From: Pseudomonas phage vB_PaeM_USP_25
Sequence record: MT491208.1
DNA length: 62,537 nt
Direction: 5' to 3' (one strand)
Made by a program: the position numbers and the translations under genes. The first letter of the stretch is position 1. Each line of letters starts with the position of its first letter. The notes beneath the pieces were generated by a model. That model was not told where the DNA came from, did no database searches, and saw only the letters and a program-made list of their open reading frames with translations. Below are positions 2,531 to 42,831 of this stretch, one piece after another.

Positions 2531-2575
2531 GCGACACCCTCTACCCACAACACAGCGCCAGGAGGCGCCAACACG

Positions 2576-2761: not shown

Positions 2762-2817
2762 GCAAGCTCCCCTGTAGGGCTGGACGCACCAGCCCTGCAT
2801 CCCAAGACTGGCCACCT

Positions 2818-3555: not shown

Positions 3556-3559
3556 CCCG

Positions 3560-26412: not shown

Positions 26413-26492
26413 CGCGCCCCCTGTAGGGCTGGCCTCGGGTTGGTCTGGTCCGGGACACTTCCCGGCACTAGGCCGACTTCCAGGGGCTTCCC

Positions 26493-27326: not shown

Positions 27327-28132
27327 ACGGGCAGGCATTCCAGCCAACCGGCGTACAGCGCAGCGCGCAGAACGAGCAGGCGGTACAGAACCTGATGGCG
27401 CGCACGCCCGAGCTAGGCAGCGGTACACCGCCCGCAGCGGCCGGCTTCAATCCTGGCGGCTCCCGCGTCTCCGTGATCGGCGACAGCGGGCGTATGGAGG
27501 ATCAGCAGCGCCGCGCCTTTGCCGCCGCCAGCACGGCCCACCGGGGAGCGCAGAACGGGCAGCTGACCGCCGCTCAGATCAACGCCATGCGCGGCCTAAT
27601 CAGCGACGAGCGCAGTGATCGCACATCGCGGGCCAACACCGAGGCGAACAATGCGGCATCGCTCCAGCGGGAAGCCATGAGCCAGGCTGGCGCCAGCAGC
27701 CGCGCAGCACTTCAGGAAGGCAGCCAGAACGCTCGATTCTCGGCCAGCAACCAGCTCGACCAGCGCCGACTGGCCGGCGAGGAAGAGGCGCGCGGCTTCA
27801 CCGCCCGCCAGGCGCAGCGTATCGAAAAGCTCTACGACCAATACGACCAGGCCAAGCCGGAAGATCGCAGCGCCATCGCGCAGCAGATCCGCGAGCTAAG
27901 CGGTGGCCAGCAGCAGAACCGCTTCACCGTCGTACCTGGTGGCCAGGAGATCGACCCGACCACGCAGCAGCTCGTCACCCGTCCGGCCATGGTGCTCAAC
28001 AACCAGACCGGCGAGTTCGTGCAGCAGCAGGGCGCCACCGGCCCGCAGGCGCCACGCCCCGGCGAAACCCGAGGCGGCTACCGATTCAAGGGCGGAAACC
28101 CCGCCGATCAGAACAACTGGGAGAAGATTTAA
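27146..28132 (+). CDS. virion protein, 3' ORF of a probable frameshifted pair (Gln/Asn-rich)
   Basis: high-GC3 frame beginning inside the upstream ORF at a G5 run; ends with ATGTCC overlap into the giant gene. Confidence 0.45.
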   Translation: MPAAQAATQPPSTPTAAPAAAPANAAAMPGGDLPSEPRANDITRVGNSFSGTNIGPGFTVNGQAFQPTGVQRSAQNEQAVQNLMARTPELGSGTPPAAAGFNPGGSRVSVIGDSGRMEDQQRRAFAAASTAHRGAQNGQLTAAQINAMRGLISDERSDRTSRANTEANNAASLQREAMSQAGASSRAALQEGSQNARFSASNQLDQRRLAGEEEARGFTARQAQRIEKLYDQYDQAKPEDRSAIAQQIRELSGGQQQNRFTVVPGGQEIDPTTQQLVTRPAMVLNNQTGEFVQQQGATGPQAPRPGETRGGYRFKGGNPADQNNWEKI

Positions 28133-31100
28133 TGTCCGATCAGAAGCCGTGGGAATCGTTCCAGGATCAAGGCGCGACAGCGGACAGCGATCAAAAGCCA
28201 TGGGAATCGTTCGGTGGTGAAACCAAGCCGGAAGGCAAGGGCGTACTCGGGCATGTGCGCGACCTGGGTCTGTCGGCAGCCAAGTCGGTTATCGCCGTAC
28301 CGGAAACGGCGGTCGGTCTTCTCGACATCCCTACAGGTGGTCGTGTCGGCAAGTTCCTGGAGAACGAGGACGGCATGGTCGGCTTCCGCCCGAGGCAGGC
28401 CAAGGAATACCTCAGCGACCTGCACACCGACCAGTACAAGGCGCAGCAGCAGCAGTTCCAGGAGGCTGAAGGCGTTCTGGACAAGACCGGCGTAGCGCTG
28501 TCGAACCCGTCACTGATCGCCAATACCGTCACCGAATCCATCGCTCCGATGCTCTCCGGTGGTGTTGCGGCGCGCGGCATCCTGGCCACCACAAAGCTGG
28601 GCCAGATGGGCGTCAAGGGTGCCGCTACAGCGGGCGCCCTGGGTGAGGGCGCGGTGATGGCTGGCGCTCAAGCCGAAGCGATCCGCCAGGAAACCGATGA
28701 CGGCCTGCTGACTCCCGGCCAGTCCGGCGCTGCCGTTGCCACTGGCGCGCTGGGTTCCGTGTTCGGCTATGCCGGTGGCCGCCTGGCGCAGAAGCTGGGC
28801 ATCGGCGACGTGGACACCATGCTTGCGCGCGGCATCACCCCGGACCAAGTGGCCGCCGACCTGGCCACTGCGCCGGCCAAGAGCATCCCGCGCCAGGTGA
28901 TTGAGGGCGCCATATCCGAAGGCTTCTTCGAGGAACTGCCGCAGTCCGTCTCCGAGCAGATCATCCAGAACCTTGCGCTCGACAAGGAGTGGTCCGAGGG
29001 CGTAGACGAGGCAATCGTCATGGGCACGCTCGCCGGTATGGCGATGGGCGGCCCCGCTGCGGGCTTCTCGGCATTGACGCGCCCCGCGCCAGCGGCCGGA
29101 GACGCTGAGGCACCCGCTGCTGACGCTACGTTCGAGGGCACCCCAGAGGCACCAGGCCCGATTCCAGCGCTGCCGGCGCCGGTCTACGAGGCTGGTCCCG
29201 ACGGCACGATTCGCACCACCGACGACATGAACGCGGCCAATCAAGCCGCGCGCCAGGCCGAAGCCGACCGCCTGAGCCGTATTGCTCGCGGTGAAGTCAC
29301 CGACGTGACGCCCATTCCGGCAGCGCCTCTGCCATCCGAGCAGATGGGCCTCAACCCCGACGCCGGCCCGATGTCCACCGCCGCCGCGCTGGCCGTCGAT
29401 AGCGGCGCATCGCAGCAGCTCGCCGGCCAGGCCGCTTTACAGCAGGCCGCCGAGATCGCTCAGCAGCAGGCCAAGGGCAAGGGACCGCAGCCGCGCCAGG
29501 GCGAGCTGATCGACAACGAAACCGGCGAGATCATCACCACTGCGCAGGCCGAGCCGGTAGACCGCGCCGCCGAGCTGAAGGAGCGCATCAACTACATCCG
29601 CAATCAGGCCAGGGCGTCCGGCTGGGACCGCCACCTGGTCGAGGCGCGCGAAGCGGCAGAGGCCGAGCTTGCCAGGCTGCAACCGCAAGCCAAGGCCGAG
29701 GACGCCGCCAGGCAGGTGCTCGCGACGGGTGGAACGGAGGCAGACGCCACGCGCGCCGCCACCGATTCGCTGATCGGTGACATGGAGAAGACGCCAGGGA
29801 TCAGCATTGCCCAAGACGCCCCGGCAGCGGTGGCAGCGGCCAAGCAGGAGCCGAAGGCGCCGACGACCGTGCAGGAAGGTATCGAGCAGGTTCGCGCCGA
29901 GAAGGCGGAAACCCCGGCAGCTCCTGCCGATATCAAGACGGTGATCGCCAAGCAGATCCCGCAGATGACCGACGCCGAGCTGCAACAGGCGGTCGCCCAC
30001 TACGGCCCCGAGCACAAGCGCACCGCGAAGCTGAACAAAGAACTGGCCAAGCGTGGCGTACAGCCTTCCCAGCAACCGACGGAGATTGTCGATGGCGAGC
30101 AAGCCCCTCAAGCCCAGCAAGCAGGCACGCAACGAGCGCAAACGCCTGGAGCGGCAGCGCAAGCACAACCCGCAACCGCCGACCCCGCAGCCGGCCCAGT
30201 AGGCCCGGCTTCCCGCTGGGACGCGATGACCCCGGCAGAGCGCCAGGCCGTTGCTGAGAAGGCAGGCGTCAAGCCGGTATTCGCCAAGAACCTGCCGAAC
30301 GCCGGATGGGATCGCATTGGCGCGTCCGTTCGCGCGAAGCTGTCCGAGGCCATGGACCCTGAATTGACCGCTTCGCTTGCCGAATCGAAAGCGGGCGCTC
30401 AGGAACTTGCGGCGAGGGCTGCCGCGTATGAGGCATCGAAGGCGCCGAAGATTGAAGGCCGCGACATCGGCGACGGCTGGGCAGAGTTCGCCAAGGAGTC
30501 CGGCACCATCAGCGTGCCGCGTGCCGAAATGCCGCAGATCAAGGCCGAGCACCGTGGCGCAATGGTCAACTTCCTGAACGCCCGAGGCATCGCGCACCAG
30601 GAGGAAACCGTACCAGCTGCCAGCCTCAAGCCGACGCAGGCTGAGTTCTCCCGCGAGAAGGTGGCCAAGGCCAAGGCGTTCGAGGGCGGCAACCGCTCCA
30701 TTCTCGTGTCGTCCGATGGGCATGTGCTCGACGGGCATCATCAGTGGATGGCCAGTCGCGAGAAGGGCGAGGACGTGAAGGTCATTCGCCTGGACGCGCC
30801 GATCCGCGACCTGGTACAAGCCGCGCACGAGTTCCCCAGCTCAACCACTGACCAGGCATCAGGCGGCGCTACGCAAACCACCACCGGGCCATCCACCAGC
30901 CAAGCGGTAAACGACTTCATTGAAGGTCGCCGCGCTGATGCGCCCACCGTGCAAGAGGTTGAGCGCGAGCAGGCGCCAGCCGACGCCGACCCCATTGGGC
31001 GTGAGATCGAGAAGGCCAAGCAGCGCTACATGCGCGTTCGCCGCGAGGGCGACCAGACCAAGACCCTGGCCGCCGAGACTCGCCTGCGCAAGATGCGGAC

Positions 31101-34100
31101 GGCTGCCATTCAAGCAGACGACTGGATCGAGGCCGCGCTCGCTGGCGATCAAAGCGCGATTGCCAAGCTGGAAGAAGCCGGCTTTGCCGATACTGCCGAC
31201 GCAGTGCGCGAGCAGACCGCACAGCCTTCTACTCAGGAAGCACCGCAGGCAGCGGCAGCACCCGAAGCTGAAACCAAGGCCAAGGACGCCGACCGCTTCG
31301 CCGGCAACAAGATATTCACCGCCGACGCGGTGGCCGCTGCGCGTGCGCGCATGAAGTCCAAGCTGGGCCAGCTCAACAGCGGCATTGATCCCGAGCTGAT
31401 GATGGACGGAATGACCATCGCGGGCGCGTACATCGAATCGGGCGTGCGCGACTTTGCGCAGTACGCCGCGATGATGTCCGAGGACTTCGGCGACAAGATC
31501 AAGCCGTACCTGCTGAGCTTTTGGGAGGCCGCGCGCAACTATCCCGGCGTGGACAAGGACGGCATGACCAGCGCCGAGGAATCGGCGCGCCTGCATGCTG
31601 ATCTTCTGCGCCCTGTCATTCAAGCGGCCAAGGCGTCTACCGGCGTGCGCCAGGCTGCCAAGGAGGCAGGCATAGCCATGGCGGGCACGATCCACGACTG
31701 GAGTAGCAAGGCGTCGGGCCAGGCCAAGGTCAAGAAGGCTGTCGTGGATTCCCTGCTGAGTGAAAACGGCCTGCCAGAGAATGAGATTGACGGCGTTATG
31801 CCGCTGGCCGATGAAATCTATGCCGAGATACGCGGCCTGGGTGACAGTGCGCCAGCCATCGGCACCGTGGCCGAGAAGCCCAAGGCTCGCACCAGGAAGA
31901 CCGGCGCCAGGGGCGACATGGTGCTGACGCAGGACTGGGGCGTCGAGCACATCGACGGCTACGGCGATAGCGCCCGCGAAACCGGCAACGACACCAAGGA
32001 CGCCTTCCTCAAGGAAGCGCGCAACTACCTGAACGCGGTAGCCGATGCCCTGCGCGCCTTCGGCTTCGAGCCGCACCTGGACCGCAAGGGCAAGCCAGAA
32101 AAGCCGGTGAGCGTGAACGAGGGTGGACCCGCTGGCAGCGGTGACGTTTCCCTGGTCATGCGGAACGAAGACAACGGCAATAACGTCTACATCACCATCG
32201 GCGACACAGCGCTGCGTGGCGTTGTGCCGAGCACGCCGAGCGGTATTGCGCTAATGTATCGAGTAGGGCCGGGAACCGACCGCTACGCTGCCAAGGCCGG
32301 CAACACCTGGGGGCCGGTCGATCTGTCCGCAAACGACCTGGCCGCGCTGGTGAATAGCCGTGTTCGCCCCGCACAAGAGAATGAGGTTCGCGATGAACAA
32401 CCTGCAAATGGCGCTCAAGATCAAGGCCGAGCGCAAGAAGTACGAGGCGGAAGAGGTGATTCACAACCGGGAACTGCACCAGCGGATTCTGGAGACGTGG
32501 CGCCGCGACAGCCCGCAGATGGCGGCCAGACTGGAGAAGCAGGGGCTTCTGGACGATCTGGCGTTCGTCAGCCAGGAGCGAATGTGGCGAGCGGCGAAGG
32601 CGTACCGCAAGGGCGGTCTTCCGGTGACGGACGCCAGGGAGCAGGCCGAGCGGGAGCATCTGATGCTGGAACCCGAGCAGGCCGAGCCGATGGAGCCTCG
32701 GATGCCGCAGGAAGCCGAAGCGGCGATGCTGCCACCCAGCCGCTAACCTCCCCAGCCGGCACGGCGGCGCAGGCCCGCGACCTGCACATTGAAAACCCGC
32801 TCGACATCGTAGGCGGCACGCCGGTTCAGCGCTTCAACCGCAACCGCGCGGCGCTCGAACTGCTGCAAACCCTGCAAGAGGAAGGCCGCCAGGCCAATGC
32901 CGACGAGCAGAAGGTGCTTGCCGGTTACATCGGCTGGGGTTCGTTCGGGCAGGAGCTGTTCCAGGGCACCTGGGAGCGCCCTGTTTACAAGGACGAGGGG
33001 GTCTGGAAGGAGCGCGGCGAGTGGCTGCGCGACACCCTGGGTGAATCCGCCTGGAAGTCCGCCCAGCGTTCGATCACCAACGCCCACTACACCGACCCGC
33101 CCACCGTCATGGCCATGTGGGACATGGTGCGGCGTATGGGTTTCGAGGGCGGCAAGGTGCTGGAGCCATCCATGGGTACCGGCAACTTCTACAGCATGAT
33201 GCCGGCCGACCTGAAAGCACGCAGCCAATTGACCGGCATCGAGCTGGACGAGACAACCGGCGAGATCGCCAAGCAGCTGTTCCCGCAGTCGAACGTGCGG
33301 ATCATGGGCTATCAGGATTCCAAGACGCCCGACGGCTTCTATGACCTGATCATCGGCAACTGGCCTTTCGAGAACACCCCTGTAGCGGATCGCCGCTACA
33401 ACAAGCTGAACCCGATGCTCCATGACTACTTCTTCCTGAAGACCATGGACCAGGTTCGCCCCGGTGGGATCGTGATCGGCATTACCTCTGCCGGCTCGAT
33501 GGACAAGCAGAACACCGCGATCCGCCGCGAGCTGGCTAAGCAGTCCGAGCTGGTCGCCTCGATCCGGCTGCCGTCCGGCGCGTTCGAGGAATACGCCGGG
33601 ACCAAAGTCGTCACCGATATCGTGATTCTGCGCAAGCGCCCGCAGCGTCTGGTTGCCGTGCCAAACGACGCCACCTGGGTGGAAACCGGCGAGTACCAGA
33701 CCCCTTCCGGGCAGTCGGTCAGGGTAAACCGTCACTACATCGACAACCCGCAGCACGTCATCGGCACCCTGGATCACGGCCACGGCACCACCACGTTCCG
33801 CGCGGGGATGATCGTGCATCGCCCGGAGAACATGGCCGAGCGCCTGCGACAGGCCGTTGAGCTGGTGCCGCAGGACATCATGACCCCACGCGCCAACACC
33901 GACCACCTGACCTACTACGCCAACGAAACCGGCGAGCGCCACGGCGCCCTGGCCGTTGTCAACGGAAAGCTGATGGTGGCGATGGGCGACCAGCTGGTCG
34001 AAGCCAACGAGAAATCGAAGTACGCGCTCAAGGATGCCAAGAAGACCGCTGATCGCGAGCAGCAGCTGACGGCGGCCGTGGAGCTGCGCAAGCGGCATAC

Positions 34101-37100: not shown

Positions 37101-40100
37101 GGGCGATCCGCGCATTCTCCAGCGGGTCAAGCTCCAGAAGAAGCTGGAGAGCTTGCAGCGCAAGGAGCGCATGTACACGCAGGGCATCGCCGACATGCGC
37201 CGCCAGGCCCGCAACAGCAGCCAGGAGGCTGAGCGCCTGACCAAGGCGATTGAGAAGATCGAGCGCGAGGGGACGCTGGAAAGCATCGCCGGACTGATCA
37301 GCGCCCAGCAGCAGGCGTTTACCGCCACCATTGACGGCGCGACCTACGACAACCGCAAGGACGCCGCCGAGGCACTGCAAGCCTACGTCGAGGCGGAAAT
37401 GCGCGTGGGCGACAAGCCGCGCGATATCGGCACCTATGGCGACCAGGTGCTCAGCATCGAGTGGATGGGCTTCTCCGATTCGCCCACCACCACCATCAAG
37501 GCATTCGGCCAGCAGTTCGCCGGCAAGGGCATTGCGGGCGCCGAAGCCAAGATGCGCAACTACCCGAAGGTAGTGCAGGGCGATATCGAGCAGCGCAACG
37601 CCGCACTGGCCACCGCCGAGAATATGCGCGCCGCGATGCAACAGCCGTTCGGCCAGTCGGCCGACCTGGAGCGCGTAGCCAAGCAGCTGGACGACCTGGA
37701 GAAAGACCTGTCGCTCAACCCGGTGCCGCCGCCTGCCTGGCTACGCCAAGGGGCGCCCATCGACTCCGAGGTATTCCGCAGCAAGAAGCCGTACATCGTC
37801 ACCGGCCACCGCTACAGCAATGACGGCTGGTTCGTGATCGCCGAGGACGCCAAGGGCACAACCCTGATTCCGTACCTGGAAGCCACCGATAACGTCGGCA
37901 TGCCGCTGTACGACGAGCGCGAGTTCGTGGCGCCGGAAGTGGTAGCCAAGGGCGATGGCGCTTTGACTGAAGCCGACCGAGTGCCGGATCAGCCGAAATT
38001 CTCGTTCGCCGGTCGCGGTGCGCTGGGTGCCGATCTGCTGGCGCTGTCCACCGCGCAGCGCCGCATTGGCGCCGGGGAAGACGCTGAAACCGTCCGCCAG
38101 GAAACCGGCTGGCACCGTGGCGCCGATGGCAAATGGCGCTTCGAGATCAACGACAGCCAGGCCGACATCGCGGTTTCCGGCCGCACGGCAGGTGAGATCA
38201 TCGACATGGCGCACCTGGGCGCGCTGACCGATGGCCGCCAGCGCACCACCGTCGGCGACGTGCTGGACCACCCGCAACTGTTCGCCGCCTATCCGCGTCT
38301 GGCTGGCATCCCGATCAGCGTGACCCCGGAAGGCGTGACCGCACAGGCGCGACTGCGCCGCCTGGCCACCGGCTTCAAGATCGAGGTGCGCGCCGACATG
38401 CCGCGTGACCGCATGGCCTCGGCGCTGGTGCATGAGTTGCAGCACGGCATCCAGCTCGCCGAGCAGTTCGCCATAGGCGGTTCCAAGCAGGCGCTTATCA
38501 GCGACATGGACAAGACCGGCGCGGCAACCTACCGGCGCTTGGCCGGCGAGGTGGAGGCGCGCAACGCACAAACCCGCCTGCGCATGACCGACAAGATGCG
38601 CCGCGATATCGCCCCGGAGCTGACCGCCGACACGCCGGCCAGTGAGGTACTGGTGACGTTCAACGGCCGCGACATCGTGAACAGCCAGCCGCAGAACGCC
38701 ACCCGTCCAGCGATGACTGCCAAGAGCCTGGTGCGCGCCTTCGACGTGCAGTTCCCGAAACTCACCCCCGCACTGCGCAAGATGCTGGAGCGAGGCAAGG
38801 CTGGCCAGCGCGGCGGCGTGGTGGTGCTCGACAGCGCCGACCCGCTGCGCATCGCGCACGAGTTCGCCAGGAAGACCCGCACCGGCTTCCATGACGCGGT
38901 ACAGCTATTCTCCGAAGGCGGCCGGATCTACGCCTTCTATGACCCGAAGTCTGGCCTGACCTTCATGGTGGGGCCGAACCTGGACGCGGTGACGGCGCCG
39001 GCTGTGCTCTTGCACGAAATGACCCACGGCCAGCAGCGCAAGCGGCTCGACCAGGTAGCCATGGCCATGCTGACCAACCGTCGCAAGACCCGGAACGCCG
39101 ACCTTCGCGCCTTCCTGGACCGAGTGGCGGCGCGCATGGTGGACGCGGGCGAGACGGCCAACGCCGAAGAAGCGGCCGCCTACATCGTCGAGCAGGCTGT
39201 CATGGAAGGCCGCAGCCAAGGGTTTGCCGTGGCTGATAGCCGGTTCCTGAGCTGGGTAGACCAGACCATCGGCAAGCCGGTGGGCGATTTCCTGCGCAGC
39301 TTCCTGGGCATGGTTCGTAGTTGGATGCTGCGCAACGGTATGCCGGTGGGCGAAATCACCGTTGACGACCTGGTGGGCTACGCCATGGTGGGCATGGAGC
39401 GCGCCGCAGCGGGTCGCGTGGATGGTGGGAGCACGCTATTCAGTCGTGATGCCATCACCAACAGCGCAGCATTCAAGCGCTGGTTCGGTGACAGCAAGGT
39501 GGTGGATGCCGATGGCAAGCCGCTTGTTGTGTATCACGGCACCAGTGACGGCGGATTCACCGTGTTCGACAGTCGTGCTGCAAGCGACAGCGATGCAAGC
39601 CAGAACGCAGGCGATGCTGGTCTTGGATTCTTCTTCACCGAAGATAGGGCGCTTGCTGAACAACACCGAGATCGCCTTGACGGGGATCGGCCTTCCTGGG
39701 CGACTGCCAATAAGGAGGTATATGCCGTTTACTTGAGCCTGCAAAACCCGTTCGTTACGTCCGGCAACGTGACAGCAGAGCGGCGCGCAGAGCTTGAGAC
39801 GCAAGGCCACGATGGCGTGATCTATGACTTCGGTAGCTGGAAGGAATACGTCGCCTTCCGCCCCGAGCAGATCAAGTCCGCCATCGGCAACAGCGGCGAC
39901 TTCGATCCGGCAAACCGGGACATCCGTTTCAGCCGCTCCGGCGTCAAGGCTCTGGCCGACCGTGCAGCGCTGGAGCTGAACAACACATTCACCGCTCCCG
40001 GAAAACTGCACTGGTGGCACAAGACCATCGGCACCATGTACAACCTGGCCGAGCGCTCGCCGTTCTTCAAGCCGGTATTCGAGTCGGCCCAAGGGTTCAT

Positions 40101-42831
40101 CGACGACGTGGCGCACTACGCGGCCGACGCCGCCGAGCTGGCGCCCAAGCTGCTGCCGCGCCTGGAGACGTGGCGCGACATCGCCAAGTCGCCGATCAGC
40201 GCCGAGGACAACAAGGCCATTGCCAAGCCGATCTTCGAGGGCACACTCATGTGGACCCGCGACGAATCCGGCAAGCCTGTCCGCGTGCAATCGCTGGCCG
40301 ACGCTGCTGCCAACCTGACCGCCGACGAGAAGGCCGACATCCTGCTGGCGCAGGGCAAGATCCCGGAAGGGATGTTGAGAGCCTGGAAGGCGCTGCCGGC
40401 CGAGCAGTTCGAGAAGATGATCGACAGCCGCTACGAGTCGCAATTCCTCAAGCCTGGCATTGTCTGGACCGACGCCGAGCTGCGTTCGATCTTCCAGCTG
40501 AACGATACCCAAGTGGGCCTCTACCACGAGTTCCGCGACGCGACCAATCGCAGCCTGGACACCATGGCCAGGGCCGACCTGCTGCGCTTCGGTGGCGAGG
40601 ACGTGAAGGAGCTGCGTGACGCGGTGATGGATGCGGCCGACGTGCGCGAGGCGGCGATGCTGCTGCGCGACCACCTGGCGCAGATGGCTGATTCATGGCC
40701 GGACCGCGCGACCCAACTGCTGCAAACCGCGCACGGCATGATGGAGCGTGCCGACAAGGTGGCCGAGTTGCAGGCCGAGGGCTACGCGCCGCTGTCTCGC
40801 TTCGGCAAGTACACCGTGGACGTGGTGGAGGACGGCGAGCGCCAATACTTCGGGCTGTTCGAGACGAAGCGCGAAGCCAACCAGATGGCCGAGCAGATGC
40901 GCGCCGAGTTCGGCCAAGGCTCCGTGAGCCAAGGCACCCTGTCCGACGAATCGTTCAAGCTGTTCGCCGGTATCACGCCCGAGTCACTGGAGCTGTTCGG
41001 CAACATGCTGGGCCTCGACTCCACCGGAGATAGCGCGCAGGACCAGGCTTTCCAGGAGTACCTGCGCCTGACCAAGACCAACCGCAGCGCCATGCGCCGG
41101 CTGATCCACCGCAAGGGCATCGCCGGTTACAGCGAGGACGTGGGCCGCGTGTTGGCGTCGTTCGTCTACTCCAACGCCCGCCAGACCGCTGCCGGCCTGC
41201 ACATGGGCGACCTGGGCGATGCGGTGAACGCGATCCCGAAAGAGCAGGGCGAGCTGAAAGACGCCGCCGTGCGCCTGTCCGAGTACATCAAGAACCCGCA
41301 GGAGGAAGCGCAAGCCGTTCGCGGCCTGCTGTTCGCGCAGTACCTGGGCGGATCGGTGGCTTCGGCGTTCGTCAACATGACGCAGCCGTTCGCCGTGTCG
41401 TTCCCCTGGCTGACCCAGCACGGCGGCGCACGCAAAGCATCGTCCGAGCTGATCCGCGCCGCCAAACACATGAGCACCAAGGGCTACAGGTACGAGGCGG
41501 AACTGGCAGAGGCGCTCAAGAAGGCCGAGGACGACGGCGTTGTCAGCCCGCAAGAGGTTCATCAACTGATGGCGCAGGCTCGCGGTAGCGGATCGCTGCG
41601 GGCCGGTGACGGCACGCGCGCGGGTGAGGCAAGGGCGGCCGCCTCCAACGCGGTGGCGCGCCTGTCCGTGGCCTGGGGCAAGCTGTTCGGTGCAGCGGAG
41701 CAGATGAACCGCCGCGTGACCTTTATCGCCGCCTACCGGATCGCGAAGTCGCAGGGCATGCGCGATCCCGATGCGTTCGCGCGCCATGCCGTCACCGAAA
41801 CCCAGTTCGTCTACTCCAAAGCATCCAAGATGCAGTGGGGTCGCGGGGCCATCGGCGGCACGCTGATGACCTTCAAGACCTACTCCGTTGCCTACATGGA
41901 GCTGATGCACCGCCTGTGGAACCAGGGTCAACCTGGCTCGCAAGAGCGCAAGGAAGGCCGCAAGGCAGCGCTGCTGATGCTTGCCACGCTGATGCTGATG
42001 GGCGGGGCCGGTGGCTTGCCGTTCGCCGAGGACGTGGAAGACCTGATCGACGGCCTGGCGCAGCTCGCCGGCTACAACTTCTCCAGCAAGAAGGCCAAGG
42101 AGGAATTCTTGGCCAGCGTGTTCGGCGAGGAAATCGCGCAGTTCATCGACAAGGGCGTGAGCGGTCTACCGGGCGCGCCGCTGGACGTGTCCGGCCGCTT
42201 GGGTATGGGCAACCTGATCCCTGGCACCGGCCTGTTCCAGGAGCGCACCAGCCATACCCGCGACGTGCTGGAGGTGGCGGGGCCAATGGGCGACTTTGCC
42301 AACCGCATTGCCAGCGGCACGCGCAAGGTCCTGGGCGGTGATGTCGGCAGCGGCCTGCTGGAAATGTCGCCGGTTGCCGTGCGCAACGCCGCCAAGGGCG
42401 TGGACATGGCTGTCACTGGCATGTACCGCGACACCAAGGGCTACAAGGTGCTCGACACCAACGTCCTGGAAGCGGCATTGAAGTCGATTGGCTTTCAGCC
42501 GCAGAGCGTGGCACAGGTGCAGGAGGCCAACTGGCTCAACCAGCGCGCCAAGAACTTCTACAGCATGCGGGCGCAGGAGATCCGTTCGCTGTGGGCTACC
42601 GGCATCTTCGAGAAGGACGATGCCAAGGTGCAACGCGCGCGCGATGCCATCGCCGACTGGAACGCCAAGAACCCATCACAGCCCATGCTGATCCGTATCC
42701 CGGATGTCATGCGGCGCGTGCGGGAAATGTCGAAGACCAAGGACCAGCGCATCGCTGATACCGCGCCGAAGGCCATGCGCGTGCAGATGCGGGAGGACGT
42801 GGCGCGCCTGCGTTCAAGCATGGCGGATTAA
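28132..42831 (+). CDS. giant polyvalent virion protein (4899 aa): ParB/Srx-like nuclease, N6-adenine DNA methyltransferase, SNF2-family helicase, two HExxH domains, ART-like domain and C-terminal TM region (DarB-like anti-restriction candidate)
   Basis: single open frame of 14.7 kb. Motifs: ParB-like ...SVPRAEMPQIKAEH...LDGHHQWMA (about 30490..30830). MTase GTGNFY...GNWPFEN (about 32780..33900). Helicase GTGKTF, DEAH-type MILVDEAHEF and a helicase-C block (about 35100..36960). HELQH at 38431 and HEMTH at 39013. ART-like YHGT...EYVAF (about 39520..39930). TM segment near 41970..42030. Confidence 0.8.
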   Translation: MSDQKPWESFQDQGATADSDQKPWESFGGETKPEGKGVLGHVRDLGLSAAKSVIAVPETAVGLLDIPTGGRVGKFLENEDGMVGFRPRQAKEYLSDLHTDQYKAQQQQFQEAEGVLDKTGVALSNPSLIANTVTESIAPMLSGGVAARGILATTKLGQMGVKGAATAGALGEGAVMAGAQAEAIRQETDDGLLTPGQSGAAVATGALGSVFGYAGGRLAQKLGIGDVDTMLARGITPDQVAADLATAPAKSIPRQVIEGAISEGFFEELPQSVSEQIIQNLALDKEWSEGVDEAIVMGTLAGMAMGGPAAGFSALTRPAPAAGDAEAPAADATFEGTPEAPGPIPALPAPVYEAGPDGTIRTTDDMNAANQAARQAEADRLSRIARGEVTDVTPIPAAPLPSEQMGLNPDAGPMSTAAALAVDSGASQQLAGQAALQQAAEIAQQQAKGKGPQPRQGELIDNETGEIITTAQAEPVDRAAELKERINYIRNQARASGWDRHLVEAREAAEAELARLQPQAKAEDAARQVLATGGTEADATRAATDSLIGDMEKTPGISIAQDAPAAVAAAKQEPKAPTTVQEGIEQVRAEKAETPAAPADIKTVIAKQIPQMTDAELQQAVAHYGPEHKRTAKLNKELAKRGVQPSQQPTEIVDGEQAPQAQQAGTQRAQTPGAAAQAQPATADPAAGPVGPASRWDAMTPAERQAVAEKAGVKPVFAKNLPNAGWDRIGASVRAKLSEAMDPELTASLAESKAGAQELAARAAAYEASKAPKIEGRDIGDGWAEFAKESGTISVPRAEMPQIKAEHRGAMVNFLNARGIAHQEETVPAASLKPTQAEFSREKVAKAKAFEGGNRSILVSSDGHVLDGHHQWMASREKGEDVKVIRLDAPIRDLVQAAHEFPSSTTDQASGGATQTTTGPSTSQAVNDFIEGRRADAPTVQEVEREQAPADADPIGREIEKAKQRYMRVRREGDQTKTLAAETRLRKMRTAAIQADDWIEAALAGDQSAIAKLEEAGFADTADAVREQTAQPSTQEAPQAAAAPEAETKAKDADRFAGNKIFTADAVAAARARMKSKLGQLNSGIDPELMMDGMTIAGAYIESGVRDFAQYAAMMSEDFGDKIKPYLLSFWEAARNYPGVDKDGMTSAEESARLHADLLRPVIQAAKASTGVRQAAKEAGIAMAGTIHDWSSKASGQAKVKKAVVDSLLSENGLPENEIDGVMPLADEIYAEIRGLGDSAPAIGTVAEKPKARTRKTGARGDMVLTQDWGVEHIDGYGDSARETGNDTKDAFLKEARNYLNAVADALRAFGFEPHLDRKGKPEKPVSVNEGGPAGSGDVSLVMRNEDNGNNVYITIGDTALRGVVPSTPSGIALMYRVGPGTDRYAAKAGNTWGPVDLSANDLAALVNSRVRPAQENEVRDEQPANGAQDQGRAQEVRGGRGDSQPGTAPADSGDVAPRQPADGGQTGEAGASGRSGVRQPGANVASGEGVPQGRSSGDGRQGAGRAGASDAGTRAGRADGASDAAGSRSGDAATQPLTSPAGTAAQARDLHIENPLDIVGGTPVQRFNRNRAALELLQTLQEEGRQANADEQKVLAGYIGWGSFGQELFQGTWERPVYKDEGVWKERGEWLRDTLGESAWKSAQRSITNAHYTDPPTVMAMWDMVRRMGFEGGKVLEPSMGTGNFYSMMPADLKARSQLTGIELDETTGEIAKQLFPQSNVRIMGYQDSKTPDGFYDLIIGNWPFENTPVADRRYNKLNPMLHDYFFLKTMDQVRPGGIVIGITSAGSMDKQNTAIRRELAKQSELVASIRLPSGAFEEYAGTKVVTDIVILRKRPQRLVAVPNDATWVETGEYQTPSGQSVRVNRHYIDNPQHVIGTLDHGHGTTTFRAGMIVHRPENMAERLRQAVELVPQDIMTPRANTDHLTYYANETGERHGALAVVNGKLMVAMGDQLVEANEKSKYALKDAKKTADREQQLTAAVELRKRHTALVDAERAGHDGKAARKALRDAYQAFTKAHGPLRDSFAMTYLERIEDPFFAELAALENDDGTPAAVMQRSTTRGKRIIENPGVRDAYVLARNQSVNPSLAEVARISGKPEQDVKAELLDSGAVFEAPNGDIVPSDIYLSGNVREKMREAEAALAMGNQAMSVNIQALKDVMPEDVPYFNIETKLGATWVPNDAYKQFVAHMLARESTDGIEVSFRSGRWKVRVSTALNNSREAQANYGSAHVSFGRLVQAAMSNQVLRLTSKDRDGNDVYDAEKTEEANARIAKMREDFGTWLWSDPERRQDLEREYNETRNAWATPKYDGSFLTFEGMALTLGKGEFNLRQHQVNAIWRAIVNRRSLNAHEVGTGKTFTMGGIAVESRRYGIAKKPVILAHNANSATVAAEIRMMYPSARVLYVDNLQPKNRDIRLRQIANDDWDAIVIPHSLIDRLALREETLMQMAADDIAALEAEFYDAAAEDGVDVSKVDLDDDESIGKVRSVTAKELAKARKRIIENIKKQAQQASKEGAVTFEDLGIDMILVDEAHEFKKPPIVTRMQMKGLNTQVSGRSIALQFLTRYVRQMNNGGNVHTFTGTPITNTITEIYHQMRYVMESEMEQANVSDWDGWFGSFATEVQDVELSAAGDYEMVTRLAGFVNVPELRQMVGQYMDTVFADDMPEMQPRKVNGKQMGDELTEAERGQLLNGRTEGAMDRPYKKVVNASADMTERQQEIFRQLQQYAQDWRSASGKERRELMRSGDPRSPIVTEGIATKASFDVRLLDESLAGMEGKTQDDQNSKASRVVANTLEIYNSDPNANQVIFAEMGFSKTVRRTRTDANGDKTTTTHKVFSTIHDIVERLVQGGIPREQIAIVDGSTSKERRKEIAQAMNESRMRVVIGSTDTLGVGVNMQRNLRAMHHLDAPYMPGELEQRNGRGQRQGNQWNTVLEYRYMTDRLDGRRWQILAVKQRFINAFMKANNAARVIEGEAAADEQSDILESFSEAAGDPRILQRVKLQKKLESLQRKERMYTQGIADMRRQARNSSQEAERLTKAIEKIEREGTLESIAGLISAQQQAFTATIDGATYDNRKDAAEALQAYVEAEMRVGDKPRDIGTYGDQVLSIEWMGFSDSPTTTIKAFGQQFAGKGIAGAEAKMRNYPKVVQGDIEQRNAALATAENMRAAMQQPFGQSADLERVAKQLDDLEKDLSLNPVPPPAWLRQGAPIDSEVFRSKKPYIVTGHRYSNDGWFVIAEDAKGTTLIPYLEATDNVGMPLYDEREFVAPEVVAKGDGALTEADRVPDQPKFSFAGRGALGADLLALSTAQRRIGAGEDAETVRQETGWHRGADGKWRFEINDSQADIAVSGRTAGEIIDMAHLGALTDGRQRTTVGDVLDHPQLFAAYPRLAGIPISVTPEGVTAQARLRRLATGFKIEVRADMPRDRMASALVHELQHGIQLAEQFAIGGSKQALISDMDKTGAATYRRLAGEVEARNAQTRLRMTDKMRRDIAPELTADTPASEVLVTFNGRDIVNSQPQNATRPAMTAKSLVRAFDVQFPKLTPALRKMLERGKAGQRGGVVVLDSADPLRIAHEFARKTRTGFHDAVQLFSEGGRIYAFYDPKSGLTFMVGPNLDAVTAPAVLLHEMTHGQQRKRLDQVAMAMLTNRRKTRNADLRAFLDRVAARMVDAGETANAEEAAAYIVEQAVMEGRSQGFAVADSRFLSWVDQTIGKPVGDFLRSFLGMVRSWMLRNGMPVGEITVDDLVGYAMVGMERAAAGRVDGGSTLFSRDAITNSAAFKRWFGDSKVVDADGKPLVVYHGTSDGGFTVFDSRAASDSDASQNAGDAGLGFFFTEDRALAEQHRDRLDGDRPSWATANKEVYAVYLSLQNPFVTSGNVTAERRAELETQGHDGVIYDFGSWKEYVAFRPEQIKSAIGNSGDFDPANRDIRFSRSGVKALADRAALELNNTFTAPGKLHWWHKTIGTMYNLAERSPFFKPVFESAQGFIDDVAHYAADAAELAPKLLPRLETWRDIAKSPISAEDNKAIAKPIFEGTLMWTRDESGKPVRVQSLADAAANLTADEKADILLAQGKIPEGMLRAWKALPAEQFEKMIDSRYESQFLKPGIVWTDAELRSIFQLNDTQVGLYHEFRDATNRSLDTMARADLLRFGGEDVKELRDAVMDAADVREAAMLLRDHLAQMADSWPDRATQLLQTAHGMMERADKVAELQAEGYAPLSRFGKYTVDVVEDGERQYFGLFETKREANQMAEQMRAEFGQGSVSQGTLSDESFKLFAGITPESLELFGNMLGLDSTGDSAQDQAFQEYLRLTKTNRSAMRRLIHRKGIAGYSEDVGRVLASFVYSNARQTAAGLHMGDLGDAVNAIPKEQGELKDAAVRLSEYIKNPQEEAQAVRGLLFAQYLGGSVASAFVNMTQPFAVSFPWLTQHGGARKASSELIRAAKHMSTKGYRYEAELAEALKKAEDDGVVSPQEVHQLMAQARGSGSLRAGDGTRAGEARAAASNAVARLSVAWGKLFGAAEQMNRRVTFIAAYRIAKSQGMRDPDAFARHAVTETQFVYSKASKMQWGRGAIGGTLMTFKTYSVAYMELMHRLWNQGQPGSQERKEGRKAALLMLATLMLMGGAGGLPFAEDVEDLIDGLAQLAGYNFSSKKAKEEFLASVFGEEIAQFIDKGVSGLPGAPLDVSGRLGMGNLIPGTGLFQERTSHTRDVLEVAGPMGDFANRIASGTRKVLGGDVGSGLLEMSPVAVRNAAKGVDMAVTGMYRDTKGYKVLDTNVLEAALKSIGFQPQSVAQVQEANWLNQRAKNFYSMRAQEIRSLWATGIFEKDDAKVQRARDAIADWNAKNPSQPMLIRIPDVMRRVREMSKTKDQRIADTAPKAMRVQMREDVARLRSSMAD
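32393..32746 (+). CDS. alternative-frame ORF embedded in the giant gene (117 aa, helical and charged)
   Basis: frame has GC3 about 85% with typical codons and GAGG-N6-ATG; the giant-gene frame over the same 390 nt has GC3 about 40% and is G/S/R/A low-complexity; opens after TGA 32351..32353 and ends at TAA 32744..32746. Confidence 0.45.
   Translation: MNNLQMALKIKAERKKYEAEEVIHNRELHQRILETWRRDSPQMAARLEKQGLLDDLAFVSQERMWRAAKAYRKGGLPVTDAREQAEREHLMLEPEQAEPMEPRMPQEAEAAMLPPSR

What the first reader, a model, noticed from the sequence alone, without database searches (positions are those of the whole stretch)
28132..42831. 4899-aa polyvalent virion protein: ParB nuclease, Dam-like MTase, SNF2 helicase, two zincin motifs, ART-like domain and a TM tail
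This is a single 14.7-kb gene at the end of the structural module, just before the lysis cassette. Domains, in order: ParB/Srx-like (…PRAEMPQIKAEH…LDGHHQW); N6-adenine MTase (GTGNFY motif I, NWPF motif IV); SNF2/DEAD-like helicase (GTGKTF, DEAH, helicase-C); two HExxH metallopeptidase-like motifs (HELQH at 38431, HEMTH at 39013); an ADP-ribosyltransferase-like segment (YHGT…S…EYVAF); and a hydrophobic segment near 41970..42030. This combination matches the polyvalent-protein architecture described for P1 DarB-like proteins, which are delivered with the DNA to counter host restriction. It also resembles the roughly 4600-aa gp75 of Burkholderia phage Bcep22, from memory. Which restriction or defense systems it defeats, and whether the peptidase motifs process it, are open questions.
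Basis: partly seen in the sequence, partly recalled or inferred. Interest (0 to 1): 0.75.

Follow-up and report, generated by a model that had tools for sequence, protein, structure and literature searches.

The report
Giant ejected polyvalent phage protein
This 14.7-kb phage gene encodes a cysteine-free, 4899-residue protein that is probably carried in the virus particle and injected with the DNA, bringing anti-restriction and host-modifying enzymes; a small, apparently unannotated second gene seems to be hidden in another reading frame inside one of its linkers.

Summary
ORF 28132..42831 (+) encodes 4899 aa, and every cited motif sits at the stated coordinates. It lies between virion genes and the holin/endolysin genes of an F116/USP_18-like temperate Pseudomonas phage.

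The polyvalent, DarB-like reading is supported:
- Pfam finds ART-PolyVal and LPD23.
- The methylase-SNF2 region matches P1 DarB and Bcep22 gp75 directly.
- The "ParB" segment folds as ParB/Srx, although the canonical Arg is Gln here.
- Both HExxH regions look zincin-like; that evidence is weak.

- An N-terminal domain homologous to that of an N4-like virion RNA polymerase.
- A ~970-aa C-terminal PLxRFG module. It closes all 150 best-matching cluster representatives (of 4310 matched); these are 1095-5677 aa long and carry very different cargo.
- Cysteine depletion across the whole family.
- The ART domain is a swappable cassette: a different allele in USP_18, LPD3 in H66, absent in 8P.

I also found something unexpected. 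The G/R/S/D-rich linker before the methylase holds a +1-frame ORF (32393..32746, 117 aa) with a Shine-Dalgarno-like site and normal coding composition. A TnpV-like counterpart, partly shown to be homologous, sits at the same place in eleven further phage sequences, in the same +1 frame in ten of them.

The protein itself is a new member of a known kind.

The parts
28132..42831 (+). Giant gene, 4899 aa, no cysteine; 96% identical to the unannotated gp31 of Pseudomonas phage vB_PaeM_USP_18
28120..28127 (+). Shine-Dalgarno-like GGGAGAAG; the upstream ORF's stop overlaps the start codon (TAATG)
28132..29121 (+). N-terminal domain (aa 1-330). It has a doubled KPWESF motif and Gly/Ala-rich, moderately hydrophobic helices. 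It is homologous to the N-terminal domain of an N4-like virion RNA polymerase.
   Evidence: BLASTP of aa 41-307 against Acinetobacter phage XC38 vRNAP aa 69-336: 30.5% identity, E 1.1e-23
29122..30471 (+). Ala/Gln/Pro/Glu-rich region poor in hydrophobic residues (aa 331-780), read as a flexible linker
   Evidence: no Pfam match
30472..30846 (+). ParB/sulfiredoxin-fold domain (aa about 781-905) with motifs MPQIK, LKPTQ and DGHHQ
31279..31626 (+). Widely conserved block of unknown function (aa 1050-1165)
   Evidence: 97% identical to 8P, 60% to Bcep22 gp75, 74% to a Microcystis phage; no Pfam match
32317..32781 (+). Gly/Arg/Ser/Asp-rich linker (aa 1396-1550) whose third codon positions are abnormally AT-rich (GC3 0.47)
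32393..32746 (+). Embedded +1-frame ORF of 117 aa (MNNLQMALKIK...TDAREQAEREHLMLEPE...), TnpV-like, with an SD-like GAGAATGAGG upstream
   Evidence: It is the only one of 75 alternative-frame open stretches with coding-like GC (0.69/0.40/0.85). Counterparts at the same place in 11 other phage sequences, +1 to the giant ORF in 10 and +1 to the dyad frame in PBC5. Substitution pattern; Pfam TnpV below threshold.
32782..33051 (+). LPD36-like helical domain (aa about 1551-1640) with the GXGU motif as GWGS
   Evidence: Sequence compared with the description in PMC5512222; not tested with a profile
33052..33831 (+). N6-adenine DNA methyltransferase core (aa about 1641-1900): TP motif, GTGNF, NWPF
   Evidence: Pfam N6_Mtase 21.8 bits against cut-off 20.4 on the segment; motif conservation across 116 homologs; P1 DarB E 9e-26
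35092..37311 (+). SNF2-type ATPase/helicase (aa about 2321-3060): GTGKT, DEAH, Helicase_C
   Evidence: Helicase_C 35.7 bits; PHROG DarB-like E = 0; BLASTP to P1 DarB and Bcep22 gp75
37987..38661 (+). LPD23 plus first zincin-like domain (aa 3286-3510): HELQH ... GEVEAR
   Evidence: LPD23 75-79 bits; H, E, H and the GEVEAR residues are near-invariant in 82 sequences; fold matches are weak
38719..39426 (+). Second zincin-like domain (aa about 3530-3765): HEMTH
   Evidence: Pfam DUF6782 E 0.007, below threshold; 32% identical to Bcep22 gp75 around its HEAFH; model; fold matches
39436..39924 (+). ADP-ribosyltransferase cassette (aa 3769-3931), bounded by FSR motifs and compositionally foreign
   Evidence: ART-PolyVal E 1e-21; the slot holds other content in USP_18, H66 and 8P; GC3 0.66 against 0.85-0.88 in the flanks
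39925..42828 (+). Constant C-terminal module (aa 3932-4899), including the PLxRFG 'tail-700' domain (aa 4217-4883; PLSRFG at aa 4220)
   Evidence: NCBIfam NF032893, 769.9 bits; 4310 cluster representatives match, and the module is C-terminal in all of the best 150
41965..42024 (+). Conserved hydrophobic helix (aa 4612-4631), with basic residues before it and acidic residues after: a candidate membrane segment
26493..28132 (+). Upstream virion gene (phrog_11341; homolog of USP_18 gp30). Here it is split into two overlapping ORFs by a deletion of about 260 nt.
42929..43707 (+). Holin and endolysin genes immediately downstream

Best explanation
The gene encodes a very large, cysteine-free protein built of folded domains joined by flexible linkers. 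I read it as the largest ejection protein of this F116/USP_18-like temperate Pseudomonas phage. It would be packaged in the capsid and pushed through the tail into the cell with, or just ahead of, the DNA.

It has two constant ends and an exchangeable middle.

The ends are the delivery apparatus. The first is a Gly/Ala-rich N-terminal domain shared with an N4-like virion RNA polymerase; the N-terminal domain of N4's own polymerase binds lipid. The second is a roughly 970-residue PLxRFG module carrying one conserved hydrophobic helix.

The middle is cargo that acts early in infection:
- a ParB/Srx-fold domain;
- a DarB-type unit (LPD36, N6-adenine methylase, SNF2 ATPase) that would travel along the incoming DNA and protect it in cis from restriction;
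- two zincin-like peptidase domains that may cut the chain at its module borders;
- an ADP-ribosyltransferase that would modify host proteins.

What is shown: the ORF, the domain homologies, the ParB fold, the constant-ends and variable-middle pattern across the family, the cysteine depletion and the cassette exchange.

What is inferred: the virion location (from mass spectrometry on relatives), ejection, the targets of the enzymes and any self-processing.
For: Domains:
- ART-PolyVal, LPD23 and Helicase_C pass their Pfam cut-offs. N6_Mtase passes it on the isolated segment.
- PHROG 'DarB-like antirestriction' has E = 0.
- P1 DarB matches in three collinear segments (E 9e-26, 3e-10, 4e-10). Bcep22 gp75 matches at E 2e-176.
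- In 116 methylase homologs the catalytic motifs are intact: T of the TP motif in 113/113 sequences, and N-[V/W/I]-P-F with N in 106/107 and P and F in 105.

Delivery apparatus:
- The N-terminal domain matches XC38 vRNAP residues 69-336 at E 1.1e-23.
- N4 gp50 is described as a lipid-binding N-terminal domain, low-complexity linkers, cargo, an HExxH domain and a large helical C-terminal domain, ejected as beads on a string (PMC13434306).
- The C-terminal module matches 4310 cluster representatives. In the best 150 it is always at the extreme C-terminus of proteins of 1095-5677 aa.
- Measured with the window's own domains, those 150 show 33 cargo arrangements, and none has the window's full set.

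Cysteine:
- The protein has 0 Cys in 4899 aa, where the frequency in neighbouring genes predicts about 20 (P about 1e-9).
- The 150 relatives hold 57 Cys in 468,089 aa.
- N4 gp50, gp51 and gp52 and Bcep22 gp75 have none.

Virion location of relatives:
- JC1 gp69 was found in purified virions with 51 unique peptides (PMC9144972).
- The RefSeq note for H66 gp60 reports mass-spectrometry verification.

Position: last gene of the virion block, start codon overlapping the preceding virion gene's stop, just before the lysis genes.

Cargo exchange: the ART slot differs between this phage and USP_18, although they are 98% identical elsewhere.
Against: - Nothing was measured for this phage itself: no virion proteomics and no enzyme activity.
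- The canonical Arg of the ParB/Srx active site is Gln in this clade.
- The ART has Phe where the family description puts the strand-2 Tyr.
- N4 gp50 itself shows no significant similarity by BLASTP. A profile of the C-terminal module does not detect the N4 or XC38 C-terminal domains. The parallel with N4 therefore rests on the N-terminal domain and the overall layout.
- Whether the conserved hydrophobic helix spans a membrane or is simply buried in the fold cannot be decided from sequence.
- P1 DarB, the only member with a demonstrated anti-restriction role, is a much smaller head protein of a myovirus. It has 8 Cys and neither of the constant ends.
Confidence: 0.78

Rival explanations
1. The protein is first of all an essential part of the DNA-ejection channel, the counterpart of T7 gp16 or N4 gp50. 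On this view it anchors the channel in the inner membrane, and the enzyme domains are optional passengers. It would be a structural necessity rather than a dispensable anti-defence factor.
For: The two ends are constant while the middle varies freely. 39 of 150 relatives have none of the window's cargo domains. The N-terminal domain is homologous to that of a vRNAP, and N4's N-terminal domain inserts into nanodiscs (PMC13434306). The three preceding virion proteins (384, 631 and 328 aa; the last is the second half of the split upstream gene) are also Cys-free, like N4 gp51 and gp52.
Against: This does not exclude the main explanation; it differs only in which role is essential. Bcep22 gp75 has the cargo but shows no BLAST-detectable N-terminal or PLxRFG module, so cargo and delivery parts can separate. 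There are no knock-out data.
Confidence: 0.45
2. The cargo serves host takeover or exclusion of competing elements rather than anti-restriction. The ParB-like domain would nick or degrade host or rival DNA. The ART would reprogramme host proteins. The methylase would mark phage DNA for self-recognition.
For: PMC5512222 proposes these alternatives for ParB and ART domains in polyvalent proteins. The ART slot turns over fast, as expected of a domain in conflict with the host.
Against: The only experimentally characterised relative of the methylase-helicase unit, P1 DarB, protects DNA from type I restriction (PMC5512222). The ParB-like domain lacks the canonical Arg.
Confidence: 0.2
3. The single 14.7-kb ORF misrepresents the products. 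The region would really give two or more proteins, for example an N-terminal part ending in the TnpV-like sequence and a separate methylase-helicase-PLxRFG protein, as annotated in phage PBC5. These would arise by frameshifting, internal starts or sequencing error.
For: In PBC5 the upstream part is in frame with the TnpV-like sequence and stops at locus position 1926, while the methylase frame is open from 1350. In the window the linker's main frame has an abnormal composition.
Against: The main frame is uninterrupted in the window, USP_18, 8P, Bcep22, BcepIL02, JC1, Gerry, Y7 and two IMG/VR contigs. No -1 slippery heptamer is present in the seven sequences checked. PBC5 is an old sequence and may carry errors (inference).
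Confidence: 0.12
4. The embedded +1-frame ORF is a relic and not a gene. On this view an ancestral in-frame TnpV-like domain was knocked out of frame and now merely supplies a linker.
For: In the more divergent pairs the substitution pattern is not significantly skewed towards the third positions of the alternative frame (p 0.27-0.95). Pfam TnpV matches are below threshold. The window, 8P and Bcep22 versions are not significantly similar pairwise.
Against: The frame stays open for 90-117 codons, with an ATG and a purine-rich SD-like site, in ten further sequences; their surrounding domains fall to about 30% identity in the most distant lineages. It keeps the genome's coding GC pattern while the main frame loses it. 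Between L011 and L012 it is 79% identical against 58% for the main frame. Differences there are 18/15/33 by alternative-frame codon position (p 0.015).
Confidence: 0.25

Closest known systems
Pseudomonas phage vB_PaeM_USP_18 gp31 (QLI49405.1, annotated 'hypothetical protein')
   Same: It is the ortholog: 96% amino-acid identity over the whole length and 100% over the methylase-helicase region, in the same genome context. It contains the same embedded +1 ORF.
   Different: It carries a different, longer ART allele in the cassette slot, 63% identical across the aligned aa 3700-4000 including the conserved flanks. Its upstream gene gp30 is intact (634 aa), whereas the window's copy is split.
Burkholderia phage Bcep22 gp75 and JC1 gp69 ('DarB-like antirestriction', 4602 and 4515 aa)
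   Same: A giant Cys-free protein encoded at the end of the virion gene block. It shares the ParB-like domain (54%), the aa 1054-1200 block (60%), the methylase-SNF2 unit (30%, E 2e-176) and one zincin-like domain (32%). It is present in virions by mass spectrometry. It has the embedded +1 TnpV-like ORF at the same place.
   Different: It has no BLAST-detectable counterpart of the N4-like N-terminal domain, LPD23 with the first zincin, the ART, or the PLxRFG module.
Phage P1 DarB (2255 aa)
   Same: The LPD36/N6-adenine methylase/SNF2 unit matches directly: aa 1652-1840 against DarB 91-279 at 31% identity and E 9e-26, plus two helicase segments. It is the archetype of methylase-helicase proteins carried in virions (PMC5512222).
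   Different: DarB is only that unit. It is a myovirus head protein with its own N-terminal capsid-targeting sequence (PMC9024508), it has 8 Cys, and it has no ParB, zincin, ART, N4-like N-terminal domain or PLxRFG module.
Pseudomonas phage H66 gp60 and the F116-like homologs ('PLxRFG domain-containing protein', 3787 aa)
   Same: The same two ends, ParB-like domain, LPD23 and two HExxH domains: 68% identity over aa 3286-4897 and 79% over the last 965 aa. The gene position is the same. A RefSeq note reports mass-spectrometry verification.
   Different: It has LPD3 in place of the ART and a different, small methylase. Pfam finds no helicase family in it, and the window's SNF2 region has no BLASTP match in it. 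No convincing embedded TnpV-like ORF was found in the H66 locus (best E 0.79).
Coliphage N4 gp50, the virion RNA polymerase (3500 aa), and its Schitoviridae homologs
   Same: The layout matches: an N-terminal domain that inserts into membranes, low-complexity linkers, central cargo, an HExxH domain and a large helical C-terminal domain. It is Cys-free, ejected, and present in a few copies per virion (PMC13434306). The N-terminal domain is homologous to that of XC38 vRNAP (E 1.1e-23).
   Different: The cargo here is not an RNA polymerase. N4 gp50 itself shows no significant similarity, and its C-terminal domain is not detected by a profile of the PLxRFG module.
Polyvalent proteins as defined by Iyer et al. 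2017 (PMC5512222)
   Same: Many unrelated enzyme domains in one late-gene polypeptide. The hub domains are the same: zincin-like peptidase, ART, SNF2, N6-adenine methylase with LPD36, and a ParB-superfamily domain.
   Different: A text search of the paper finds no mention of PLxRFG, TnpV, frameshifting or overlapping genes. I did not search it for cysteine depletion.

Membership tests
Polyvalent proteins (Iyer et al. 2017) | Several domains of disparate biochemistry in one polypeptide, including family-specific domains (ART-PolyVal, LPDs) | tested here: met
   ART-PolyVal 78.6 bits, LPD23 75.2 bits, Helicase_C 35.7 bits, and N6_Mtase 21.8 bits on the segment
Polyvalent proteins (Iyer et al. 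2017) | Encoded among late or virion genes of a phage (or the transfer genes of a conjugative element) | tested here: met
   It lies between head-closure/virion genes and the holin and endolysin genes
Polyvalent proteins (Iyer et al. 2017) | [quoted passage not shown] | not testable with these tools
   Only indirect evidence: relatives are in virions by mass spectrometry
DarB-like methylase-helicase proteins (P1 DarB) | LPD36 + N6-adenine methylase + SNF2 ATPase in that order, with sequence similarity to P1 DarB | tested here: met
   Three collinear BLASTP segments to P1 DarB (E 9e-26, 3e-10, 4e-10); GWGS as the GXGU motif of LPD36; PHROG DarB-like E = 0
DarB-like methylase-helicase proteins (P1 DarB) | Protects the phage's own DNA in cis against type I restriction | not testable with these tools
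   Needs plating assays on hosts with and without restriction systems
Gamma-class N6-adenine DNA methyltransferases | Motif I (GxGxF) and motif IV NPP(Y/F), with an upstream TP motif | tested here: inconclusive
   GTGNF and YTDP are present. Motif IV is NWPF, not NPPF. In 116 homologs the motif is N-[V 83 / W 14 / I 9]-P-F, so the first Pro is not a feature of this subfamily, and Asn, Pro and Phe are conserved. 8P, Bcep22 and H66 carry an NPPF, found by pattern search only and not aligned to this position.
SNF2/SF2 helicases | Walker A, DExH box and the C-terminal helicase domain | tested here: met
   GTGKT at aa 2354 and DEAH at aa 2530; Helicase_C above its cut-off. SNF2-rel_dom and ResIII are below their cut-offs.
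ParB/sulfiredoxin superfamily | The ParB/Srx alpha+beta fold | tested here: met
ParB/sulfiredoxin superfamily | Conserved active-site arginine (DGHHR-type motif) | tested here: not met
   The motif is DGHHQ in the window and its close relatives. Arg or His appears only in distant homologs (P0028, P0033, P0032).
ParB/sulfiredoxin superfamily | Match to a Pfam ParB-superfamily profile | tested here: not met
   The Pfam scan of aa 760-1000 at E up to 5 returned no family. A profile search of PDB sequences also found no ParB.
Zincin-like metallopeptidases of polyvalent proteins | HExxH on one helix plus a downstream Glu on the next helix | tested here: met
   For the first domain, H149, E150, H153, E188 and E190 (numbered from aa 3286) are at least 90% conserved in 82 sequences. 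For the second, HEMTH is present and its homologs keep HExxH (8P, H66, Bcep22).
Zincin-like metallopeptidases of polyvalent proteins | Zincin fold | tested here: inconclusive
ART-PolyVal (Tox-ART-HYD2 clade) | Profile match plus the His / Tyr / Asp catalytic configuration | tested here: inconclusive
   The profile match is strong (E 1e-21). His (YHGT) and Asp (GHDG) are present. The aromatic residue I place at strand 2 is Phe here and Tyr, Trp or Phe in homologs.
PLxRFG domain proteins (NCBIfam NF032893 'tail-700') | Profile match above the cut-off, and the PLxRFG motif | tested here: met
   769.9 bits against a cut-off of 100, over aa 4217-4883; PLSRFG at aa 4220
Schitoviridae virion RNA polymerases (N4 gp50) | T7-like RNA polymerase core | tested here: not met
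   No polymerase family in Pfam, PHROGs or NCBIfam; no significant BLASTP match to N4 gp50
Schitoviridae virion RNA polymerases (N4 gp50) | The N-terminal (injection) domain | tested here: met
   aa 41-307 against XC38 vRNAP aa 69-336, E 1.1e-23. N4 gp50 itself is not detected.
Schitoviridae virion RNA polymerases (N4 gp50) | The C-terminal (C2) domain | tested here: not met
   A profile of 76 C-terminal modules gives E 0.11 or worse against N4 gp50 and XC38 vRNAP
TnpV (Pfam PF14198), for the embedded +1-frame ORF | Profile match above the cut-off | tested here: not met
   The window's ORF gives no TnpV match. The Bcep22 and JC1 versions reach 14.2 and 14.8 bits against a cut-off of 27. A profile of seven such ORFs matches the N-terminus of P0330 at E 0.005; Pfam labels that protein TnpV.

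The most novel reading that the evidence does not exclude
Giant DarB-like virion genes may contain a conserved overprinted gene that, as far as I could find, has not been annotated. It is a TnpV-like protein of about 90-117 aa, read in the +1 frame of the disordered linker just upstream of the LPD36-methylase-SNF2 unit and started at its own Shine-Dalgarno site and ATG (window 32393..32746).

The linker's main-frame sequence would then be a by-product, shaped by selection on the hidden frame. The small protein would be a partner of the methylase-helicase unit. In a bacterial homolog (P0330) the first ~65 residues, which Pfam labels TnpV, are in the same frame as LPD36-methylase.
Probability: 0.65. 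Interest if true: 0.7.

Novelty: new member of a known kind. Interest (0 to 1): 0.58.

Why it matters
The protein itself is one more member of the polyvalent, DarB-like class, and a 96%-identical copy is already in GenBank without annotation. Three results reach further.

1. Its two ends link the DarB-like giants of temperate podoviruses to the ejected RNA polymerase of N4-like phages. This suggests one delivery frame that can carry very different cargo: thousands of relatives, with 33 cargo arrangements among the 150 examined. The recent N4 structural model could therefore be tested on a much wider set of phages, and the family could be used as a natural system for delivering proteins into Gram-negative cells.

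2. The near-total absence of cysteine across the family is a simple sequence signature. It may help to recognise ejected proteins.

3. If the embedded +1-frame gene is real, it is a missing component of DarB-type anti-restriction modules. It would also be a clear case of a disordered linker being dictated by an overlapping gene.

Tried and rejected
- Sequence search of the whole protein against PDB chains: no match.
- Profile of the ParB-like domain against PDB sequences: only a chance hit. The fold search was needed.
- Direct BLASTP against N4 gp50: nothing significant.
- Profile of the C-terminal module against the N4 and XC38 polymerases: nothing significant. The statement in PMC5217972 that this end corresponds to the C-terminal domain of N4 gp50 is therefore not supported here.
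- Homology between the upstream virion proteins (USP_18 gp27-gp30) and N4 gp51/gp52 or XC38 gp11-gp13: no BLASTP signal.
- Antisense ORFs inside the gene (up to 813 aa): no Pfam match, and a non-coding GC pattern.
- Tandem repeats in the gene: none.
- The short FS[RF] motif occurs three times, exactly at module borders (aa 3289, 3769, 3932). I considered it as a peptidase cleavage site. It is part of the conserved N-terminal segment of the LPD23 family, so this stays an untested idea. At DNA level the two copies that flank the ART share only a few bases.
- Programmed -1 frameshifting from the embedded ORF into the methylase frame: no slippery heptamer in any of seven lineages.
- The window's embedded ORF against Pfam, GenBank phages and plasmids: only USP_18 matched.
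- Gill et al. 2011 on Bcep22 could not be read.
Full report
**Observation.** The window is almost a complete genome of a temperate Pseudomonas phage. The giant gene is 98% identical at DNA level to that of vB_PaeM_USP_18 (MT491207). It is related in part to P. stutzeri phage 8P and, at the 3' end only, to the F116-like phages.

ORF 28132..42831 (+) encodes 4899 aa from an ATG. That ATG overlaps the stop of the preceding virion gene (TAATG), and GGGAGAAG lies just upstream.

The frame shows coding composition along its length. The long antisense ORFs have no family match. Upstream lie head-closure and virion genes. Downstream lie the holin, the endolysin and the integrase.

**Domain map** (N to C; residue numbers, with the evidence for each):

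1. aa 1-330, N-terminal domain. It begins with a doubled KPWESF motif that is conserved in 8P and H66. It contains several Gly/Ala-rich, moderately hydrophobic helices. Residues 41-307 align with residues 69-336 of the virion RNA polymerase of the N4-like Acinetobacter phage XC38 (30.5% identity, E 1.1e-23).
2. aa 331-780, an Ala/Gln/Pro/Glu-rich region poor in hydrophobic residues.
4. aa 1050-1165, a block of unknown function. It is 97% identical in 8P and 60% in Bcep22 gp75, and it is found as far away as a Microcystis phage.
5. aa 1205-1395, a stretch richer in hydrophobic residues than the flanking linkers, with no family match.
6. aa 1396-1550, a Gly/Arg/Ser/Asp-rich linker (see the embedded ORF below).
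7. aa 1551-3060, the DarB-type unit.
   - It has an LPD36-like helical domain with GWGS as the GXGU motif, a methylase and an SNF2-type ATPase.
   - The methylase reaches the Pfam cut-off when scanned as a segment (21.8 against 20.4 bits).
   - NWPF is not a decayed motif. In 116 homologs, motif IV is N-[V 83 / W 14 / I 9]-P-F, and the upstream TP motif is conserved.
   - The unit matches P1 DarB in three collinear segments (best E 9e-26) and Bcep22 gp75 at E 2e-176. It occurs in 134 phage records.
8. aa 3286-3510, LPD23 plus HELQH...GEVEAR. This pair is a unit that also exists as free proteins of about 350 aa. Its His, Glu, His and downstream Glu residues are near-invariant.
9. aa 3530-3765, a second HExxH domain (HEMTH).
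   - The model of both domains has pLDDT 82.8.
   - I treat 'zincin-like' as likely but not proven. It agrees with the published profile-based assignment for this class (PMC5512222).
10. aa 3769-3931, ART-PolyVal (E 1e-21). The family is described as His-Tyr-Asp type. His and Asp are present, and the aromatic residue I place at strand 2 is Phe.
11. aa 3932-4899, the C-terminal module. It includes the NCBIfam PLxRFG 'tail-700' domain (769.9 bits; PLSRFG at aa 4220). It also includes the one strongly hydrophobic helix, aa 4612-4631. That helix is conserved as hydrophobic across the family, with basic residues before it and acidic residues after.

**Constant ends, variable middle.** An exhaustive HMMER search with the last 967 residues finds 4310 cluster representatives (1212 at E <= 1e-30). 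In all 150 best matches the module sits at the very C-terminus of proteins of 1095-5677 aa.

I scored those 150 with the window's own domains:

| Domain | Representatives with a hit (of 150) |
|---|---|
| N-terminal domain | 66 |
| ParB-like | 31 |
| Methylase | 24 |
| SNF2 | 28 |
| First zincin | 7 |
| Second zincin | 11 |
| ART | 31 (12 with more than one hit to it) |
| None of these | 39 |

There are 33 arrangements, and none has the window's full set.

Exchange is visible at close range. This phage and USP_18 are 100% identical over the methylase-helicase region but carry different ART alleles. In the same slot H66 has LPD3 and 8P has nothing. The window's cassette is compositionally foreign: GC 0.58 and GC3 0.66, against 0.65-0.67 and 0.85-0.88 in the flanks. 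A short FS[RF] motif marks exactly the three module borders in the C-terminal third.

**Cysteine.** The protein has no cysteine. The frequency in neighbouring genes predicts about 20 (P about 1e-9). USP_18 gp31 has 0, 8P_023 has 2 and H66 gp60 has 1; Bcep22 gp75 has 0. N4 gp50, gp51 and gp52 and XC38 vRNAP have 0. The 150 relatives together have 57 Cys in 468,089 residues. P1 DarB, a myovirus head protein, has 8. I read this as a signature of proteins that pass, unfolded or loosely folded, through the tail and the periplasm. That is an inference.

**How it most likely works.** The recent N4 work (PMC13434306) describes gp50 as the largest ejection protein. It has a lipid-binding N-terminal domain, low-complexity linkers, a central enzyme, an HExxH domain and a large helical C-terminal domain. 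About four copies are packaged and ejected as beads on a string.

The window's protein has the same layout and a homologous N-terminal domain, but a DarB-type cargo instead of a polymerase. Relatives are in virions by mass spectrometry (JC1 gp69; H66 gp60).

I therefore propose that the two ends serve packaging and passage through the envelope. The middle would act early in infection:
- the methylase-SNF2 unit would protect incoming DNA in cis, as P1 DarB does;
- the ART would modify host proteins;
- the zincins may cut at the module borders;
- the ParB-like domain would bind or hydrolyse a nucleotide, or nick DNA.

None of these activities was tested. N4 gp50 itself and its C-terminal domain are not detectably related. 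The protein works like N4 gp50 but is not a member of that family.

**An embedded gene in the linker.** In the linker at aa 1396-1550 the main frame has GC1/2/3 of 0.83/0.67/0.47. Every other part of the gene has GC3 of 0.66-0.88. The +1 frame there has the genome's normal coding pattern (0.69/0.40/0.85). It is the only one of 75 alternative-frame open stretches of at least 85 codons in the gene that does.

It holds an ATG at 32393, preceded by GAGAATGAGG, and gives a non-repetitive 117-aa protein.

The same arrangement recurs immediately upstream of LPD36: a +1-frame ORF of 90-117 aa, with a purine-rich SD-like site before its ATG, lying in a Gly/Arg/Ser/Asp-rich main-frame linker. I found it in:
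- USP_18;
- two IMG/VR contigs, 57-58% identical;
- 8P, Bcep22, BcepIL02, JC1 and Ralstonia phage Gerry, including a perfect AAGGAGG in Bcep22;
- Pseudoalteromonas phage Y7.

The substitution pattern supports selection on the hidden frame. Between the two IMG/VR contigs the +1 protein is 79% identical, against 58% for the main frame over the same bases. Differences fall 18/15/33 on the +1 frame's codon positions (p 0.015). In the adjacent methylase they fall 10/10/51 on the main frame's positions. In more divergent pairs the skew is not significant, although the +1 frame is never the less conserved one.

The Bcep22 and JC1 versions give sub-threshold Pfam TnpV matches (E 0.045 and 0.029). A profile of seven versions finds two further sequences:
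- the N-terminus of P0330 (E 0.005), a bacterial homolog in which a region that Pfam labels TnpV and LPD36-methylase are in one frame;
- the C-terminus of PBC5 gp22 (E 0.014), where the sequence is in frame with the upstream part.

Gene callers have independently called the exact Bcep22 and 8P versions on short contigs. None of those records carries a name. None of the GenBank records I looked at annotates such an ORF. There is no -1 slippery site. The H66 locus, whose protein shows neither the DarB-type methylase nor a helicase, gave no convincing match.

I consider a functional overlapping gene, expressed by internal initiation, the best reading (about 0.65). The alternatives are a frame-shifted relic or some form of recoding. 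The window, 8P and Bcep22 versions are related only at motif and profile level.

**Comparison and novelty.** The protein is a new member, in effect an unannotated known sequence, of the polyvalent DarB-like class. The additions from this work are:
- the shared delivery frame with the N4-like polymerases;
- the size and uniform C-terminal placement of the PLxRFG module;
- the cysteine signature;
- the ART slot;
- the candidate embedded gene, which is the part a specialist would find surprising.

Noticed in passing
window 26493..28132: The virion gene just upstream (phrog_11341; a single 634-aa ORF in USP_18, 652 aa in 8P, 695 aa in H66) is split here into two overlapping ORFs, 26493..27326 and 27146..28132. 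The window lacks about 260 nt that correspond to USP_18 gp30 nt 660-917, and the frame changes. The 3 Cys of the first ORF presumably lie in its out-of-frame tail (not checked). This could be a real deletion, a pseudogene or an assembly error.
   Followed up: partly
window 23366..28132 and USP_18 gp28-gp30 (L001): The three virion proteins that precede the giant gene (384, 631 and 328 aa; the last is the second half of the split upstream gene, 634 aa in USP_18) are also free of cysteine, like N4 gp51 and gp52. The next one upstream (869 aa) has 9. They may be the other ejection proteins. BLASTP found no similarity to N4 gp51/gp52.
   Followed up: partly
window 28132..28220 (aa 1-30): The N-terminus carries a doubled motif, SDQKPWESF ... 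SDQKPWESFGGET. It is conserved as KPWE[SE]F x2 in USP_18, 8P, H66 and two further relatives. It may be a packaging or portal-docking signal.
   Followed up: no
window 37996, 39436, 39925 (aa 3289, 3769, 3932): A short motif, [RKL]FS[FR][ASD], occurs exactly three times in 4899 aa, each time at the start of a module (LPD23-zincin, ART, C-terminal module). 8P has it twice. It could be a peptidase cleavage site or a recombination joint.
   Followed up: partly
L002 (phage 8P gene 8P_023): Compared with the window, the 8P ortholog (5145 aa) carries about 470 additional residues between the ParB-like domain and the conserved block. A C5-cytosine methylase match lies within that region, alongside an Eco57I-type N6 methylase and SNF2. 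Its methylase-helicase unit is only 31-37% identical to the window's, although both ends are 77-91% identical.
   Followed up: partly
L014 (Sinorhizobium phage PBC5, NC_003324): The giant gene is annotated as two CDSs with a 1.6-kb gap between them. The upstream CDS ends in an in-frame TnpV-like domain, with its stop at locus position 1926. The methylase frame is already open from position 1350. This is either a natural two-gene version or an old sequencing error.
   Followed up: partly
window 42700..42828 (last ~40 aa): A profile of the C-terminal module gives a weak hit (E 0.006 in a ten-sequence search) between its extreme basic C-terminus and the C-terminus of XC38 gp13, a virion structural protein of about the size of N4 gp51 and in the corresponding position next to the vRNAP gene. 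This is probably chance, but it may be worth checking as a shared docking motif.
   Followed up: no
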